Of a DNA stretch of 24,000 bases, positions 5,489 to 23,036 are shown piece after piece; position 1 is the stretch's first letter, and each line of letters opens with the position of its first letter. The stretch lies in the NCBI RefSeq assembly GCF_000299355.1, contig NC_018664.1:655115-679114 (forward strand), written 5' to 3'. The translations under genes and the position numbers were made by a program. This DNA comes from Gottschalkia acidurici 9a. GTDB lineage: Bacteria > Bacillota > Clostridia > Tissierellales > Gottschalkiaceae. Under the pieces are notes generated by a model. It saw nothing but the letters and a program-made list of their open reading frames with translations, searched no databases and had not been told where the DNA came from.

Positions 5489-7369
5489 TTGGATAATATA
5501 GAAATAAGAAACTATAAGAAAATGGGAGCACACATACGAACTGAGAACAAGCAGAATGGCGTAAGATTTTCAGTATGGGCTCCTAATGCTAGACAAGTAA
5601 GCGTGGCTGGAGATTTTAATGATTGGAACGGTCGTAAGCATAAAATGATAAAGGACAAAGATACTGGAATGTGGTCACTATTTATACCAGGATTAAAAGA
5701 AGGAGATTTATATAAATATGATATAGAAGATGTAAATGGAAAAAGAGTTTTAAAGTCAGATCCGTATGGATTTCTACATGAAAAAAGACCAAATACAGCT
5801 TCTATAGTATACGACTTATTTGAATATCAATGGAATGATGTAGGGTTCAGAAGAGGAAAAAGAGTAAATAAAATGTATGAAGGACCTATAAATATATATG
5901 AAGTTCATCTAGGATCATGGAAAAGGAAAAAGGACGGAGAATTCATGACTTATAGGGAATTAGCAGATGAACTTGTAGAATATACACTAGACATGGGATA
6001 TACGCACATAGAAATCATGCCTATTATAGAGCACCCATACGATGGATCATGGGGCTATCAAGGTGTCGGATACTATTCAGTGACTAGTAGATACGGTGAA
6101 CCTAGAGATTTTATGTACTTTGTAGATAAGTGTCACCAAGCTGGTATAGGTGTTATATTGGACTGGATACCTGCCCACTTTTGTAAAGACATACATGGAC
6201 TAGCTAAATTTGATGGAACTTGTTTATATGAATATGGAAATCATATGAAAGCTGAAAACTATCAGTGGGGCACACTGAATTTCGATTTAGGAAGAGATGA
6301 GGTTATTAGCTATCTGATATCTAATGCAATATTTTATATAGATGTATTTCATATAGATGGACTAAGGGTAGATGCAGTTAGTAGTATGTTATATTTAGAT
6401 TTTTGTAAAGAGCACGGTCAATGGATACCAAATAGATATGGTGGAAGAGAAAATTTAGAGGCTATTGAATTTATGCGAAAAATGAATGAAACAATATATG
6501 AAAATTATCCTAACACATTTATGATAGCAGAAGAATCCTCAGCATGGCCTTTGGTAAGTAGTCCAACTTATTTAGGAGGGCTAGGATATAACTATAAGTG
6601 GAATATGGGATGGATGAACGACATATTAGAGTATATGGAGAAAGAAACCATACATAGAAAATGGCATCATAATTTGATTACCTTTTCTATTATGTACACG
6701 TACTCTGAAAACTTCATACTACCATTATCTCATGATGAAGTTGTCCACGGTAAGAAATCACTACTAGATAAAATGCCCGGAGACTATTGGCAGAAATTTG
6801 CTAACTTAAGATTACTCTATGGTTATATGATGGGACATCCAGGTAAAAAGTTGTTATTTATGGGTGGAGAATTTGGACAGTTTATAGAGTGGAAATATGA
6901 TGATGAGCTAGATTGGTTTTTACTAGATTATGATATGCATGAGAAAGTTAAAAACTACACTAGGGATTTAAATGCCCTTTACAAAGAGGAAAGATCGTTA
7001 TGGGAATTAGACCATAAGCAAGAGGGATTTGAATGGATAGATCCTAATAACAGTGAACAAAGTATAATCACTTTTATGAGAAAAGGTAAGAAAGAAAGAG
7101 ACTTATTAATTATAGTGTGTAATTTTACTCCTCAGGTATATGAAAAATATAAGATAGGAGTTCCTTTTCTAGGAGAATATCAAGAAGTGTTTAATAGTGA
7201 TTATGAAAAGTATGGAGGCTCGAACTTTATTAACAAAGAAATATTAGTATCAGATAATGCTAAATGGAATAATCAAAAATATTCCTTAGAAATAAATATA
7301 CCACCTCTTGGGGTAGCCTATTTCAAACTAGAGAATTTAATTGAAAAGAGTACGGAAAAAAAGGGGTAA
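5489..7369 (+). CDS. glgB: 1,4-alpha-glucan branching enzyme
   Basis: 626 aa, GH13 branching-enzyme pattern (VWAPNA..V.V.GDFNDW, GYQGVGYY, DWIPAHF, GLRVDAV, IAEES, SHDEVVHGK). TTG start at 5489 lies 29 nt after the pgi stop. The SD spacing is long, so the alternative start ATG 5522 is possible. Confidence 0.93.
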   Translation: MDNIEIRNYKKMGAHIRTENKQNGVRFSVWAPNARQVSVAGDFNDWNGRKHKMIKDKDTGMWSLFIPGLKEGDLYKYDIEDVNGKRVLKSDPYGFLHEKRPNTASIVYDLFEYQWNDVGFRRGKRVNKMYEGPINIYEVHLGSWKRKKDGEFMTYRELADELVEYTLDMGYTHIEIMPIIEHPYDGSWGYQGVGYYSVTSRYGEPRDFMYFVDKCHQAGIGVILDWIPAHFCKDIHGLAKFDGTCLYEYGNHMKAENYQWGTLNFDLGRDEVISYLISNAIFYIDVFHIDGLRVDAVSSMLYLDFCKEHGQWIPNRYGGRENLEAIEFMRKMNETIYENYPNTFMIAEESSAWPLVSSPTYLGGLGYNYKWNMGWMNDILEYMEKETIHRKWHHNLITFSIMYTYSENFILPLSHDEVVHGKKSLLDKMPGDYWQKFANLRLLYGYMMGHPGKKLLFMGGEFGQFIEWKYDDELDWFLLDYDMHEKVKNYTRDLNALYKEERSLWELDHKQEGFEWIDPNNSEQSIITFMRKGKKERDLLIIVCNFTPQVYEKYKIGVPFLGEYQEVFNSDYEKYGGSNFINKEILVSDNAKWNNQKYSLEINIPPLGVAYFKLENLIEKSTEKKG

Positions 7370-7388
7370 GCAACAGTCAAGATAAATA

Positions 7389-7404
7389 TATAAAACTATA
7401 TAAA
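7389..7404. repeat. Left copy of the 16-bp imperfect inverted repeat flanking the IS
   Basis: TATAAAACTATATAAA versus the reverse complement of 9209-9224, TATAAAACTCTATAAA (15/16 identical). Confidence 0.45.
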
Positions 7405-7448
7405 TATTTTAAGTTTATTGTTTGCTATTTATATAGATGGTCATACAA

Positions 7449-7981
7449 ATGAAATATTATTCAATAGGTGAGTTTTCAAAATTAACTGTAAAGGCAGTAT
7501 AGACTTTAAGAAGTTTGGATAATGATGGACAATTAAAGCTACATCATATATCTAAAGGTAGTTTTAGATGATATTCCAAAGAACAACTTAATCATTTTGG
7601 GGGAATTAAAAGAGAAAGACAACTAAATAAAAAGATAATAGGGTATTGTAGAGTCAGCTTTCACGAACAAAAAGATGATTTGGAACGTTAAATTGAAAAT
7701 GTTAAAACATATATGATATCTAATTCAGAAGTTGAAGAGATAGTAATTCTATATAAAGATAGATAATTAAGATTTGACTTTGAAATCATAGAAAATCTAT
7801 GTAATGAGTATGATACTACTATTGAAATTATAGATAATACTGAAAAGATAGAAGAACAGAATTAGTTTAGGATTTAGTTCAAACTGTTACACTCTTTAGT
7901 AAGTTAGAAGGTAAGAAAGTAAATAAAGCAAAGAAAATGATTAAGGAGCTATTAGAGGATGATACTGGCGAAGAAAGTTAG
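7449..7981 (+). pseudogene. tnpA: IS607-type tnpA (MerR-like HTH plus serine recombinase) pseudogene
   Basis: Translation reads MKYYSIGEFSKLTVKAV*TLRSLDNDGQLKLHHISKGSFR*YSKEQL...IIGYCRVSFHEQKDDLER*IENVKTYM..EEIVILYKDR*LRFDFEIIENLCNEYDTTIEIID...EEQ then (frameshift) LV*DLVQTVTLFSKLEGKKVNKAKKMIKELLEDD. Stops are at 7500, 7569, 7689, 7764 and 7868, with a -1 frameshift near 7860. The segment between ERQIE... and ...YKDRL is about 30 codons shorter than expected. Confidence 0.8.
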
Positions 7982-9074
7982 AATTATACCTAATACAGAA
8001 GAAGAACAACAACTTTGGAAATCTGTTGGAACTGCAAGATTTATATATAACTGGACACTTAAAAGACAAGAAGAGAACTATGAAAATGGTGATAAATTTA
8101 TAAGTGATGGAGATTTAAGAAAAGAAATCACTTTAATGAAGCAAACAGAAGAATATAAATGGCTTAAAGGAGTGTCTAACAATATAGCAAAACAGGCAGT
8201 AAAAGATGCTTGTAATGCTTATAAAAGATTCTTTAAAGGATTAGCAGATAAGCCAAGATTTAAAAGCAAAAGAAGAAGCAAGCCATCATTTTATAATGAC
8301 AATGAAAAACTAAAAGTTAAATATAAACAGATTCTTATAGAAAAAGTAGGTTGGATTAAAACATCAGAACAAATACCAATGGATGTTAAGTATACTAATC
8401 CAAGAGTAAGTTTTGATGGGAAGTACTGGTATATATCTGTAGGAATTGAGAAAAAATATCCCAAAATAGAATTGACTGGTGAAAGCATAGGTATAGATGT
8501 TGGAATTAAAGATCTTGCCATATGCTCTAATGGAATGGTTTTTAAAAATATTAATAAAACAAGGTTAGTAAAGAAATTAGAAAAAAGATTACGTAGGTTG
8601 CAACGTAAAGTATCAAGAAAGTATGAATTAAATAAAGAAGGGAGGAAGTTCGTCAAAACAAGCAACATTATAAAACTTGAAAAGCAAATTAGATTACTTC
8701 ATAGAAAGTTATCTAATATTAGAAACAACCACTTACACCAGGCAACTACTAAGATAGTGAAAACCAAGCCATCAAGAGTAGTAATGGAAACACTTAATAT
8801 AAAAGGAATGATGAAGAATAAACATTTATCAAAAGCTATAGCCAAACAAGGGTTGTATGAGTTTAAAAGACAACTTCAATATAAATGTGAATACTATGGG
8901 ATTGAATTTATTGAAGCTGATAAATGGTATCCATCATCAAAGACATGTAGTGAGTGTGGTCATTTGAAAGCTAAATTATCACTATCAGAAAGAACCTATA
9001 TCTGTGAAGAATGTAAAACTATAATAGATAGAGATTTAAATGCATCAATTAATTTAAGCAGATATTCAGCATAA
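7959..9074 (+). CDS. tnpB: TnpB (OrfB) RNA-guided endonuclease-family protein, apparently intact
   Basis: 371 aa with no lesions. RuvC-I is IGIDVGIKDLA (D180, 8496-8498), RuvC-II is VVMETLNIKGM (E277, 8787-8789), RuvC-III is IIDRDLNASINL (D359, 9033-9035), and the zinc finger is CSECG...CEEC (C330/C333/C349/C352). GGAG lies 10 nt upstream of the ATG. Confidence 0.93.
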   Translation: MILAKKVRIIPNTEEEQQLWKSVGTARFIYNWTLKRQEENYENGDKFISDGDLRKEITLMKQTEEYKWLKGVSNNIAKQAVKDACNAYKRFFKGLADKPRFKSKRRSKPSFYNDNEKLKVKYKQILIEKVGWIKTSEQIPMDVKYTNPRVSFDGKYWYISVGIEKKYPKIELTGESIGIDVGIKDLAICSNGMVFKNINKTRLVKKLEKRLRRLQRKVSRKYELNKEGRKFVKTSNIIKLEKQIRLLHRKLSNIRNNHLHQATTKIVKTKPSRVVMETLNIKGMMKNKHLSKAIAKQGLYEFKRQLQYKCEYYGIEFIEADKWYPSSKTCSECGHLKAKLSLSERTYICEECKTIIDRDLNASINLSRYSA

Positions 9075-9244
9075 CTACTAAAACAGTTATGTTTGAGGTG
9101 TAGGAAACGTTGTATCCGAAGTTAAGCCCTCGGAGTGTTATATCAAACGAAAGTAGTAGGTTCTTAGAACTATAAAATCGGACATAATGAACAGGGAATT
9201 AAACAAGCTTTATAGAGTTTTATAAGGTTTTGGCAACGGGATAT
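9075..9244 (+). ncRNA. Candidate omegaRNA (reRNA) scaffold plus guide at the IS right end; the 5' boundary is unknown and may lie inside the tnpB 3' end
   Basis: There are 155 nt of non-coding DNA directly 3' of tnpB, where TnpB guide RNAs are encoded. Visible local stems include 9075-9103 (ctac/gtag plus aaac/gttt) and 9115-9134 (tccga..tcgga around agttaagccc). There is possible long-range pairing of ctacta (9075-9080) with tagtag (9153-9158). No covariance evidence is available. Confidence 0.35.
9209..9224. repeat. Right copy of the 16-bp imperfect inverted repeat flanking the IS
   Basis: TTTATAGAGTTTTATA is the reverse complement of 7389-7404 with one mismatch. Confidence 0.45.
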
Positions 9245-9247
9245 TTA

Positions 9248-10417
9248 ATGGAAACTAAAAAGAAAGAGTGCATAGCAATGATACTGGCAGGGGGACAAGG
9301 AAGTAGGCTAGGAACTCTAACTAAGAACTTAGCTAAACCAGCAGTACCATTTGGCGGTAAATATAGAATAATAGACTTTACACTTAGTAACTGCAGTAAT
9401 TCAGGAATTGATACAGTTGGAATCTTAACACAGTATCAGCCACTTATACTAAATAGTCATATAGGGATAGGTAGACCATGGGACTTAGATAGACGTAAAG
9501 AAGGTGTTACACTATTACCACCATATGTAGACGGTAAAGGTGGGGAGTGGTACAAGGGAACAGCGAATGCTATATATCAAAATATATATTATATAGATCA
9601 GATAAAACCTGAATATGTGATTGTATTATCTGGAGATCATATATACAAAATGAATTATTCAGAAATGATAAATTATCATAAGGAAAGTAATGCAGATGCT
9701 ACTATAAGTGTAATAGAGGTTCCTTTAGACGAAGCAAGTAGGTTCGGAATTATGAATACCGATAACAACGATAAAATATATGAATTTGAAGAAAAACCTA
9801 AAGAGCCTAAAAATAATTTAGCATCTATGGGAATATACATATTCAACTGGGATGTACTAAGGCAGTATCTAATAGAAGATGAAAATAACAGCAATTCAAG
9901 TCATGACTTTGGAAAAGATATAATACCTAAGATGGTTAGTGACGGAAAAGAAATCTATGCATATAGGTTCAAAGGATATTGGAAAGATGTCGGAACTATA
10001 GAAAGCTTCTGGGAAGCTAATATGGACTTACTATCTGAGATGCCTGAGTTGAGCTTATATGAAAGTAATTGGAAAATATACTCTGAGAACACAAACTACC
10101 CCCCAAGTCATATAGCCGTAGAGAGCGAAGTGAATAGTTCACTGATAAATGAAGGATGTTCAGTTTCAGGTAAAGTAAAAAACTCTATTCTTTTTCAGGG
10201 AGTTAGTATTGGAAGAAACTCTGTGATAAAGGATTCTTTAATATTTCCGAATGTAGAAATAGGTGATAACGTGACTATAGAGAAAGCTATAATAGGAGAA
10301 AATAGTAAAATTTATGATGGAAAGAAAATTGGACAAAAATACAATGACTATAAAGAGACTAGCTATGAAATATCACAAAGTGGAATATTAGTAATAGGAG
10401 AAAATAGTATCATATAG
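9248..10417 (+). CDS. glgC: Glucose-1-phosphate adenylyltransferase, catalytic subunit
   Basis: [41 protein letters not shown] is the canonical GlgC N-terminus. The ATG at 9248 is preferred over the track's TTG at 9230, which would reach into the IS right flank. The SD is only weak (GGGA 9238-9241). Confidence 0.92.
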
Positions 10418-22789: not shown

Positions 22790-23036
22790 AGTAAGCTAAA
22801 GCTATGATAGGACGAGTAAATTAGATGTAGTCTATAGAGAGGGGTTGCCTGGGCTGGAAGCACCCTAGATGAAGCTGATTGAAAACTACCCTTGAGTTGA
22901 GCCCGAAAGGGATATCCGTTGATGACGTTATAATCATTAGAGAAAACTATGTAAAATATATAGTTTTAAATTAGGGTGGTACCGTGTGAATATATAACTC
23001 TCACCCCTAGAACTTCTAGGGATGAGAGTTTTTTTA
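22790..23036 (+). promoter_or_regulatory. T-box riboswitch leader (threonine-specific) controlling thrS
   Basis: Elements seen are: Stem I AGAGA (22836-22840); a specifier loop with AGUA on the 5' side and GAAA-ACU-A on the 3' side (ACU Thr codon, 22885-22887); the T-box AGGGTGGTACCGTG (22973-22986) with UGGU for the tRNA acceptor end; and a terminator hairpin. Confidence 0.85.
22998..23036 (+). terminator. T-box attenuator terminator
   Basis: ctctcacccctag pairs with ctagggatgagag (one mismatch), followed by TTTTTTT. Confidence 0.8.

What the first reader, a model, noticed from the sequence alone, without database searches (positions are those of the whole stretch)
7449..9074. Decay is strikingly asymmetric: at least 6 disabling lesions in 533 nt of tnpA and none in 1,116 nt of tnpB
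I read the tnpA frame directly. It has stops at 7500 (TAG), 7569 (TGA, inside the G..RRY HTH motif), 7689 (TAA in LERQ), 7764 (TAA in YKDRL) and 7868 (TAG in ELVEDL). It also has a 1-nt deletion near 7860 and an apparent loss of about 30 codons between ERQIE and YKDRL. The adjacent, twice-as-long tnpB has no stop or frameshift. It retains D180/E277/D359 and the CxxC...CxxC zinc finger. If both genes had drifted neutrally for the same time, tnpB should carry on the order of ten lesions. This argues for purifying selection on TnpB after transposase loss. The cause could be domestication, a homing/maintenance function served in trans, or recent gene conversion from other copies.
Basis: seen in the sequence. 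Interest (0 to 1): 0.65.

Follow-up and report, generated by a model that had tools for sequence, protein, structure and literature searches.

The report
Dead transposase, preserved RNA-guided nuclease
This is a small jumping gene (IS607 family) lodged in a bacterium's glycogen operon, whose "jump" enzyme gene has rotted into a pseudogene while its RNA-guided DNA-cutting gene and guide RNA stay under selection; the contrast is real, but this pattern is already documented for the family.

Summary
Window 7367-9239 is a 1,873-bp IS607-family insertion sequence in Gottschalkia acidurici 9a. It sits in the Shine-Dalgarno site of glgC.

- **tnpA (7449-7981)** is dead: five stops, a 1-nt frameshift, a 90-nt and a 3-nt deletion, and a degraded promoter and ribosome-binding site.
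- **tnpB (7959-9074)** is intact, with RuvC residues D180/E277/D359 and the zinc finger. A full-length RAGATH-18 guide-RNA scaffold follows at 9127-9198.

The asymmetry is not chance. tnpA changes unique to this copy are spread evenly over codon positions (63/403 sites; 84% nonsynonymous, which is the neutral expectation). tnpB shows dN/dS of about 0.14-0.2. Applying tnpA's substitution load to tnpB predicts 8-12 stops, so P(0) is about 5e-6 to 2e-4. The 165-nt non-coding guide-RNA/right-end region is also conserved (2/123 vs 63/403).

The pattern is already known, however. Ren et al. 2024 report that 30% of the TnpAs in these loci are pseudogenes. In my survey, 57 of 76 relatives with intact tnpB lack an intact tnpA.

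The most likely cause is selection at the level of the element, acting on a non-autonomous TnpB element. Host domestication is not shown. Interest is modest.

The parts
7362..7366 (+). Left flank AGGGG, the last codons of glgB. It occupies the position of the TnpB target-adjacent motif (TAM), and GG 7365-7366 is the recombination core dinucleotide.
   Evidence: Alignment of 18 left junctions shows RGAGG (or the variants AGGGG, GAAGG) immediately before the left end. Published TAMs for this family are AGGAG and GAGGG (PMC11061315). The GG core of IS607 TnpA is from bioRxiv 10.1101/2023.11.20.567912.
7367..7448 (+). Left end (LE) of the IS. Its first three bases (TAA) now serve as the glgB stop codon. 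The tnpA promoter and ribosome-binding site are degraded.
   Evidence: Homology with relatives begins here (TAAGCAACAGTCAA...). There is an ~18-nt gap and GAGGTG has become GATGGTC relative to intact elements. No promoter-like site was found in the LE.
7449..7981 (+). tnpA pseudogene (serine recombinase with an N-terminal MerR-type HTH). It carries 5 stops, a 1-nt frameshift, a 90-nt deletion and a 3-nt deletion.
   Evidence: The conceptual translation still reaches NCBIfam NF033518 transpos_IS607 (115.6 bits, cut-off 110). Copy-specific substitutions show a neutral pattern.
7959..9074 (+). Intact tnpB, an RNA-guided endonuclease of 371 aa. It overlaps the last 23 nt of the tnpA remnant.
   Evidence: Pfam HTH_OrfB_IS605, OrfB_IS605 and Cas12f1-like_TNB. 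NCBIfam guided_TnpB scores 327.9 bits against a cut-off of 100. It matches the PDB 8IAZ TnpB chain (taken to be ISFba1 TnpB of Ren et al. 2024) at E = 1.7e-76, with D180/E277/D359 aligned. dN/dS is 0.11-0.18.
9075..9239 (+). Non-coding guide-RNA (omegaRNA/reRNA) scaffold plus the right end (RE). It ends ...TTTTGGCAACGG, with core GG at 9238-9239.
   Evidence: There is a sharp loss of homology after CAACGG in 17 aligned loci. Only 2 of 123 comparable sites changed in this copy, against 63/403 in tnpA (P = 3e-6).
9127..9198 (+). RAGATH-18 RNA motif (RF03064), the conserved core of the guide-RNA scaffold.
   Evidence: 68.3 bits against a gathering score of 44.9, E = 6e-12, model positions 1-71 of 71.
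9240..9259 (+). Predicted guide / homing target (GATATTTAATGGAAACTAAA), lying in host DNA. It contains the glgC start codon at 9248-9250.
   Evidence: Inferred from the position immediately 3' of the RE, following the published architecture (PMC11061315; bioRxiv 10.1101/2023.11.20.567912).

Best explanation
Window 7367-9239 is a non-autonomous IS607-family insertion sequence. It inserted at a GG inside the Shine-Dalgarno site of glgC, between glgB and glgC of Gottschalkia acidurici 9a.

**Shown.**
- Its serine-recombinase gene tnpA is dead. It has drifted without constraint for about 0.11-0.16 substitutions per site.
- Over what appears to be the same period, the RNA-guided nuclease module stayed under purifying selection. 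That module is the tnpB coding sequence, the RAGATH-18 guide-RNA scaffold and the right end.
- The strength of that selection matches copies that still have a working tnpA (dN/dS about 0.14-0.2).

**Inferred.** Selection acts on the element rather than the host. In this family, TnpB loaded with its guide RNA cuts the empty site left after excision (TAM plus right-flank target). The element is then copied back by recombination. Copies without their own tnpA can still be moved by a TnpA supplied from another copy. Lineages that keep TnpB, the guide RNA and the ends therefore persist and spread, while tnpA is dispensable in cis and is often lost. tnpB here is probably transcribed by read-through from the glycogen operon, since the element's own promoter is degraded.
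For: - **Anatomy and boundaries.**. Removing the element in silico restores a glgB stop overlapping the glgC ATG (TAATG), as seen in the empty site of relative L084.
- **tnpA is neutral.** 63/403 copy-specific changes, flat over codon positions, 84% nonsynonymous. 22/205 changes fall at sites invariant in all 19 intact relatives, against a median of 0.8% for the intact copies.
- **tnpB is constrained.** 37/852 copy-specific changes. 6/363 at invariant sites (P = 5.6e-6). 46% nonsynonymous (P = 2.9e-6). Pairwise dN/dS is 0.11-0.18, the same as pairs in which both copies have intact tnpA.
- **Expected damage.** 8-12 stops and about 5 indels are expected in tnpB under tnpA's load; none is observed.
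- **Guide RNA and RE conserved.** 2/123 changes, and a full-length RAGATH-18 match.
- **Catalytic residues intact**.
- **Family pattern.** Of 76 loci with intact tnpB, 19 have intact tnpA, 39 have a remnant and 18 have none. tnpB dN/dS is 0.145 in pairs where both copies have intact tnpA and 0.161 where neither does. Conversely, 48 of 50 loci chosen for an intact tnpA have an intact tnpB.
- **Defective copies do spread.** Three copies at different sites in Niallia sp. 01092 share the same tnpA deletions.
- **Literature.** 30% of the TnpAs in RAGATH-18 IS607 loci are pseudogenes (PMC11061315). Only about 25% of tnpB genes have a tnpA nearby, and mobilisation in trans has been proposed (PMC10055086). 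TnpB-driven retention has been demonstrated for an IS607-family element (bioRxiv 10.1101/2023.11.20.567912).
Against: - I could not show that this genome holds any intact IS607 tnpA. None from its 3.1-Mb contig is among the 120 best TnpA hits. The DNA of the three in-genome paralogs could not be fetched.
- This copy is a singleton. Nothing in 5.8 billion proteins is more than 89% identical to its TnpB. There is therefore no direct sign that this particular lineage transposed after tnpA died.
- Its flank is AGGGG, not the usual RGAGG. Cleavage of its own empty site is unproven.
- The left end and promoter are degraded, which may impair mobilisation.
- For an immobile single copy, element-level selection has nothing to act on, which leaves room for a host-level benefit.
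- The loci surveyed were chosen by tnpB similarity, which favours intact tnpB.
Confidence: 0.55

Rival explanations
1. Host domestication. The nuclease-competent TnpB and its guide RNA are kept because they benefit the bacterium. They might, for example, modulate expression of glgC, whose start codon lies in the guide region, or act on other DNA.
For: - Protein-level constraint continued through a long period without a cis transposase.
- The copy is single and shows no sign of recent movement.
- The element sits inside an operon and is co-oriented with it, directly upstream of the glgC ATG. It is probably transcribed with the operon.
- Domesticated TnpB relatives are known (TldR; for papers).
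Against: - No orthologous insertion exists in any available relative. All four glgB-glgC junctions fetched are empty, but they are distant (GlgC 72-77% identical).
- The same pattern recurs at dozens of unrelated sites in many genera. That fits a property of the element better than many separate host co-options.
- The right-end sequences and the RuvC triad are fully retained, as in mobile copies. The known domesticated TldRs are nuclease-dead.
Confidence: 0.15
2. Recent renewal. The tnpB-RE half was replaced by recombination or gene conversion from an intact copy after tnpA had decayed, so tnpB only looks well preserved.
For: - tnpA and tnpB trees disagree across the family. For example, L001 vs L023 gives tnpA dS 0.36 but tnpB dS 1.63, so modules do recombine.
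- This copy's left end resembles the L013 type, while its tnpB and right end resemble the L001 type.
Against: - Copy-specific third-position change is the same in tnpA (11.8%) and tnpB (9.7%), P = 0.55. tnpB therefore carries as much unique silent divergence as the pseudogene.
- No known sequence is more than 89% identical.
- The three in-genome paralogs show no tract of elevated identity.
- Decay at invariant sites is uniform along tnpA right up to the tnpB overlap: 11/86 in the 5' part vs 11/119 in the 3' part.
Confidence: 0.08
3. Only an open reading frame is needed. tnpB must stay translatable so that transcription from glgB reaches glgC-glgD-glgA without polarity effects. The TnpB protein itself does not matter.
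For: - The element lies between glgB and glgC, on the same strand.
- No strong promoter was found at its right end.
Against: - Selection acts on the amino-acid sequence, not just on the absence of stops. First- and second-position change is 2.5% in tnpB against 16.8% in tnpA (P = 2e-14), and dN/dS is about 0.2.
- The non-coding guide-RNA region is conserved as well.
- The 510-nt tnpA remnant upstream is already untranslatable.
Confidence: 0.02
4. Chance or artefact. tnpB escaped lesions by luck, or the tnpA lesions are sequencing or assembly errors.
For: The finding was picked out after the fact by a reader looking for oddities.
Against: - P(0 stops) is between about 5e-6 and 2e-4. It is still 0.04 if tnpB had been neutral for only a quarter of the time.
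- The 63 copy-specific substitutions and three separate deletions in tnpA cannot be read errors in a finished genome.
Confidence: 0.01

Closest known systems
IS607-family elements whose TnpB is guided by RAGATH-18-derived RNA (ISFba1 and relatives; Ren et al., Cell Res 2024, PMC11061315; a TnpB structure, PDB 8IAZ, is the best solved match)
   Same: - Same gene order: tnpA (serine recombinase), then tnpB, then the RAGATH-18 RNA.
- Same RuvC triad and zinc finger.
- G-rich motif next to the left end, and a right end ending in CGG.
- That paper already reports that 30% of the TnpAs in such loci are pseudogenes.
   Different: - The TnpB is only about half identical to the 8IAZ TnpB chain (E = 1.7e-76).
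- The flank motif here is AGGGG, not AGGAG or GAGGG.
- No activity has been tested for this copy.
Non-autonomous tnpB-only IS200/IS605 elements maintained by TnpB homing (Meers et al. 2023, PMC10055086)
   Same: - An intact tnpB, guide RNA and ends, with no working transposase in cis.
- Proposed mobilisation by a transposase supplied in trans.
- TnpB cuts the empty donor joint so that the element is retained.
   Different: - Those elements use a Y1 (HUH) transposase and single-stranded intermediates. This one belongs to the serine-recombinase (IS607) group.
- Here a long tnpA remnant survives, which allows the time since its death to be measured.
CboIStron and other IS607-family IStrons of Clostridium (Zedaveinyte et al., bioRxiv 10.1101/2023.11.20.567912)
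   Same: - IS607 TnpA with a GG core dinucleotide.
- The TnpB TAM matches the transposase target.
- The guide-RNA scaffold ends in CGG.
- Retention by TnpB has been demonstrated.
   Different: - No group I intron is present here: there was no Rfam hit other than RAGATH-18 in 7300-9300.
- The TAM differs (TGGG in Cbo).
TldR, the nuclease-dead TnpB-like RNA-guided repressors
   Different: TldRs have lost the RuvC active site and act on host promoters. This protein keeps D180/E277/D359 and a normal transposon right end.

Membership tests
IS607-family insertion sequence | tnpA encodes a small serine recombinase with an N-terminal MerR-type HTH domain | tested here: met
   The conceptual translation of the pseudogene scores 115.6 bits on NCBIfam NF033518 transpos_IS607 (cut-off 110). 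It also gives weak Pfam MerR_1 and Resolvase hits. It is 55-61% identical to intact family TnpAs. The gene is non-functional.
IS607-family insertion sequence | tnpB lies downstream on the same strand and overlaps the end of tnpA | tested here: met
   tnpB starts at 7959, 23 nt before the tnpA remnant's stop.
IS607-family insertion sequence | No terminal inverted repeats or target-site duplication; a GG core dinucleotide at both junctions | tested here: met
   The left junction is GG|TAAGC (7365-7366). The right junction is CAACGG|GAT (9238-9239). Removing 7367-9239 restores an in-frame glgB stop overlapping the glgC ATG, with no duplication.
RAGATH-18 reRNA-guided IS607 TnpB (Ren et al. 2024) | A RAGATH-18 RNA immediately downstream of tnpB, on the same strand | tested here: met
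   RF03064 at 9127-9198: 68.3 bits against a gathering score of 44.9, covering the full model.
RAGATH-18 reRNA-guided IS607 TnpB (Ren et al. 2024) | An intact RuvC triad (D194/E290/D371 in ISFba1) and a zinc finger | tested here: met
   The alignment to 8IAZ places D180, E277 and D359 at the catalytic positions. 8IAZ carries Ala at the third position, which I infer to be an engineered inactive mutant. CSEC is at residue 330 and CEEC at 349.
RAGATH-18 reRNA-guided IS607 TnpB (Ren et al. 2024) | A cognate AG-rich TAM (AGGAG or GAGGG) abutting the left end | tested here: inconclusive
   The flank here is AGGGG. Relatives show RGAGG, and AGGGG also occurs in L021 (and a near variant in L050), both of which have intact tnpA. 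Whether this TnpB accepts AGGGG is unknown.
RAGATH-18 reRNA-guided IS607 TnpB (Ren et al. 2024) | RNA-guided cleavage of double-stranded DNA | not testable with these tools
   This needs a plasmid-interference or in vitro cleavage assay.
Trans-mobilised non-autonomous element | A functional family TnpA encoded elsewhere in the same genome, and ends that it recognises | not testable with these tools
   The rest of the G. acidurici genome could not be read. No TnpA from its contig is in the top 120 hits. The RE is consensus-like, but the LE is diverged.
TldR (domesticated nuclease-dead TnpB) | Loss of the RuvC catalytic residues or C-terminal truncation | tested here: not met
   The triad and zinc finger are intact and the protein is full length at 371 aa.
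IStron (group I intron fused to an IS605/IS607 element) | A group I intron at the 5' end of the element | tested here: not met
   A permissive Rfam scan of 7300-9300 (E up to 1) found only RAGATH-18. The left end is only 82 nt long.

The most novel reading that the evidence does not exclude
The TnpB and guide-RNA module may be kept by a function that needs no transposase at all. One possibility is a host-level role at the glgC start site, which the guide covers. Another is an 'anti-loss' drive, in which the nuclease destroys incoming empty alleles of its own insertion site. Under either, a permanently immobile single copy would stay under protein-level selection for about 0.1 substitutions per site.
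Probability: 0.12. Interest if true: 0.7.

Novelty: new member of a known kind. Interest (0 to 1): 0.3.

Why it matters
This locus gives a clean, internally calibrated example of something usually stated only as a census figure. The decayed tnpA acts as a neutral clock sitting next to tnpB. It shows that the nuclease, its guide RNA and the right end stayed under normal purifying selection for about 0.11-0.16 substitutions per site after the transposase died. That bears on the open question of why tnpB genes so far outnumber tnpA genes. It does not answer that question, and many other loci would serve equally well. For annotation, it corrects two things: the glgC start (ATG 9248, not TTG 9230), and the fact that the present glgB stop codon belongs to the IS.

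Tried and rejected
1. **In-genome paralogs.** I tried to fetch the DNA of the three paralogs (AFS77230, AFS79310, AFS78714) to see whether they share the tnpA lesions. They are not on record, and the genome is absent from the genome collection.
2. **Intact TnpA in this genome.** I looked for one among the TnpA homologues. None is in the best 120, which is inconclusive. The genome paper mentions only '21 transposase genes, some pseudogenes'.
3. **Dating the insertion from orthologous loci.** The nearest GlgC relatives are only 72-77% identical and all have empty sites. This gives no useful age bound.
4. **Gene conversion from paralogs.** No tracts were found.
5. **Read-through or polarity as the reason for an open tnpB frame.** Rejected, because selection acts on amino acids and on the non-coding RNA.
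6. **Much of tnpA's divergence reflects a foreign HTH lineage rather than decay.** This is partly true for the naturally variable N-terminal 60 codons. Changes at family-invariant sites are nonetheless uniform along the gene (11/86 vs 11/119), so I quote the lower neutral estimate of about 0.11 as well.
7. **IStron.** No intron is present.
8. **Shared deletion junction as proof of common descent.** The junction shared by L018, L047 and L073 lies at a 10-nt microhomology and could recur independently, so I do not count it. The Niallia triplet is the better case.
Full report
**What is there.** The window comes from the 3.1-Mb chromosome of Gottschalkia (Clostridium) acidurici 9a. The window's own TnpB is recorded on a 3,105,335-bp contig, and its closest relatives are three paralogs named from that strain.

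Between glgB (5489-7369) and glgC lies a 1,873-bp IS607-family insertion sequence at 7367-9239. I set its ends by aligning 17-18 related elements. Homology starts right after ...AAAAAGGGG (left end TAAGCAACAGTC...). It stops sharply after ...TTTTGGCAACGG.

Removing 7367-9239 in silico gives ...AAG GGG GAT ATT TAA TGG. That is a glgB stop overlapping the glgC ATG (TAATG). The same arrangement occurs in the uninterrupted glgB-glgC junction of relative L084. The other relatives (L086, L087) have the two genes only a few bases apart. All carry a GGAGG ribosome-binding site 7-8 nt upstream of glgC.

The element therefore inserted at a GG inside the glgC Shine-Dalgarno site. The present glgB stop (TAA 7367-7369) belongs to the IS. 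The true glgC start is ATG 9248, not the TTG at 9230 that the ORF list gives.

**Checking the observation.**
- stops at 7500, 7569, 7689 and 7764;
- a 1-nt deletion at 7859/7860, followed by TAG 7868 in the shifted frame;
- a 90-nt (30-codon) deletion at about 7709-7717, bounded by an ATATGAT microhomology.

Aligning to 19 intact tnpA genes adds a 3-nt deletion, loss of the tnpA ribosome-binding site, and an ~18-nt gap in the promoter region.

tnpB (7959-9074) is uninterrupted and the same length as its nearest relatives.
- It matches the TnpB Pfam domains.
- It matches NCBIfam guided_TnpB.
- It matches the PDB 8IAZ TnpB chain at E = 1.7e-76, with D180, E277, D359 and both CxxC pairs in place.

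This is the guide-RNA scaffold of this TnpB family (PMC11061315).

**Is the asymmetry more than chance?** I used the intact relatives to isolate changes unique to this copy.

| Measure | tnpA | tnpB |
|---|---|---|
| Copy-specific changes at sites where close relatives agree | 63/403 | 37/852 |
| Rate at codon positions 1 / 2 / 3 | 18.5% / 15.2% / 11.8% | 2.3% / 2.8% / 9.7% |
| Nonsynonymous share (neutral expectation 80.6%) | 53/63 = 84% (P = 0.30) | 17/37 = 46% (P = 2.9e-6) |
| Changes at sites invariant in the 19 loci with intact tnpA | 22/205 | 6/363 (P = 5.6e-6) |

Intact tnpA copies change at a median of 0.8% of the family-invariant sites. Changes in tnpA at those sites are evenly spread along the gene.

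Third-position rates in the two genes do not differ (P = 0.55). Both therefore seem to have been diverging for the same time.

Applying tnpA's own rate and spectrum to tnpB predicts about 12 stops. The conservative invariant-site rate predicts about 8.5. The same simulation predicts 5.1 stops for tnpA, where 5 are observed. P(no stop) is therefore about 5e-6 to 2e-4. It is still only 0.04 if tnpB had been neutral for a quarter of the time. About 5 indel events would also be expected in tnpB, and none is seen.

Pairwise dN/dS of this tnpB against relatives is 0.11-0.18, the same as between elements with working tnpA.

The 165-nt non-coding stretch from the tnpB stop to the right end has only 2/123 copy-specific changes, against 63/403 in tnpA (P = 3e-6). 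Selection therefore covers the whole nuclease, guide-RNA and right-end module, not just an open reading frame.

**Is it special?** No.
- Among 76 classifiable genome loci with an intact tnpB of this family, 19 have an intact tnpA, 39 have a broken or internally deleted remnant, and 18 have none.
- The sister species G. purinilytica (L082) and a MAG (L081) carry different, independent tnpA lesions.
- tnpB dN/dS is 0.145 for pairs in which both copies have intact tnpA and 0.161 for pairs in which neither does.
- Sampling from the other side, 48 of 50 metagenomic loci chosen for an intact tnpA have an intact tnpB.

The literature already says this.
- Ren et al. 2024 report that 80% of RAGATH-18 IS607 loci have both ORFs and that 30% of those TnpAs are pseudogenes.
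- Meers et al. 2023 find a tnpA near only about 25% of tnpB genes. They propose mobilisation in trans and note that autonomous elements seem prone to degradation.

**How it most likely works.** Three things are shown: tnpA is dead and neutral; tnpB, the guide RNA and the right end are constrained; and the catalytic residues are intact.

The mechanism is inferred from the family's published biology. TnpB bound to its guide RNA recognises the rejoined empty site. Here that site would be AGGGG followed by GATATTTAATGGAAACTAAA. TnpB cuts it, so the element is copied back by recombination. The RE-flank junction itself (AACGG) lacks the motif and is spared.

Copies without their own tnpA can be moved by a TnpA made elsewhere. 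Lineages that keep the nuclease module and ends therefore persist, while tnpA is expendable.

Direct support within this family comes from Niallia sp. 01092. Three copies at different sites share the same tnpA internal deletions, so defective elements do multiply.

For the window's copy this remains unproven.
- I could not read the rest of the genome to look for a TnpA source.
- The copy is a singleton with no relative above 89% identity.
- Its flank motif is a minority variant, and its left end is worn.

**Rivals.**
- *Host domestication* cannot be excluded, but it has no positive evidence. The closest available relatives all have empty sites. The protein is not nuclease-dead like the known domesticated TldRs.
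- *Recent replacement of tnpB by recombination* is disfavoured. Silent-site divergence is equal in the two genes, and there are no conversion tracts against the in-genome paralogs. Module shuffling does occur in the family, however.
- *A need merely to keep an open frame for operon read-through* is contradicted by selection on amino acids and on the non-coding RNA.
- *Chance and sequencing error* are excluded by the numbers above.

**Verdict.** The object is an ordinary member of a described class: an IS607 element with a RAGATH-18-guided TnpB and a pseudogenised transposase. I rate it a new member of a known kind, interest 0.3.

The side observation that this family sits almost exclusively in the ribosome-binding sites of co-oriented host genes may deserve its own follow-up.

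Noticed in passing
window 7362-7366 and 9239-9250; loci L001-L082: This IS607/RAGATH-18 family sits in Shine-Dalgarno sites of co-oriented host genes. In 47 of 73 loci, a same-strand ORF of at least 60 aa starts 5-9 nt after the right end (58 of 73 within 25 nt). The figure is 5.2% for random GG and 14% for RGAGG motifs in the same host flanks. The left flank is RGAGG. The full-text search found no paper discussing IS607 insertion at Shine-Dalgarno sites; the two listed papers that hold both words are about TldR and flagellin.
   Followed up: partly
window 7360-7369 and 9230-9250: The glgB stop codon (TAA 7367-7369) is supplied by the IS left end. The ancestral glgB ended ...KKGDI*, with its stop overlapping the glgC ATG (TAATG). 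The TTG at 9230 listed as the glgC ORF start lies inside the IS; the real start is ATG 9248. After the insertion glgC keeps only ACGGGAT as a possible ribosome-binding site, so its expression probably depends on read-through across the IS.
   Followed up: partly
L018, L047, L073 (upstream of tnpB): Three elements from different genera share a tnpA deletion junction at a 10-nt direct repeat (AAAAAGATGA). The junction leaves a 77-78-aa ORF that encodes only the MerR-type HTH domain and ends just before the tnpB ribosome-binding site. This is either a recurrent microhomology deletion or a spreading derivative. An HTH-only product might act as a regulator.
   Followed up: no
L031, L037, L056 (Niallia sp. 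01092) and L071: Three copies at different chromosomal sites in one genome share the same two internal tnpA deletions. A similar element occurs in a Bacillus MAG. This is evidence that tnpA-defective elements of this family still multiply.
   Followed up: partly
loci L001, L023, L019, L013 and others: tnpA and tnpB give conflicting relationships. For example, L001 vs L023 gives tnpA dS 0.36 but tnpB dS 1.63. Left-end and right-end repeat types can also be mixed. This indicates recombination between modules of different elements.
   Followed up: no
L026, L054, L061, L100: Several otherwise full-length tnpA genes carry a single internal stop, and L061 and L100 also have one stop in tnpB. These look like early stages of decay.
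   Followed up: no
window 22795-23011 (+): A T-box leader (RF00230, 102 bits) lies upstream of the last gene region of the window. It is unrelated to the finding.
   Followed up: no
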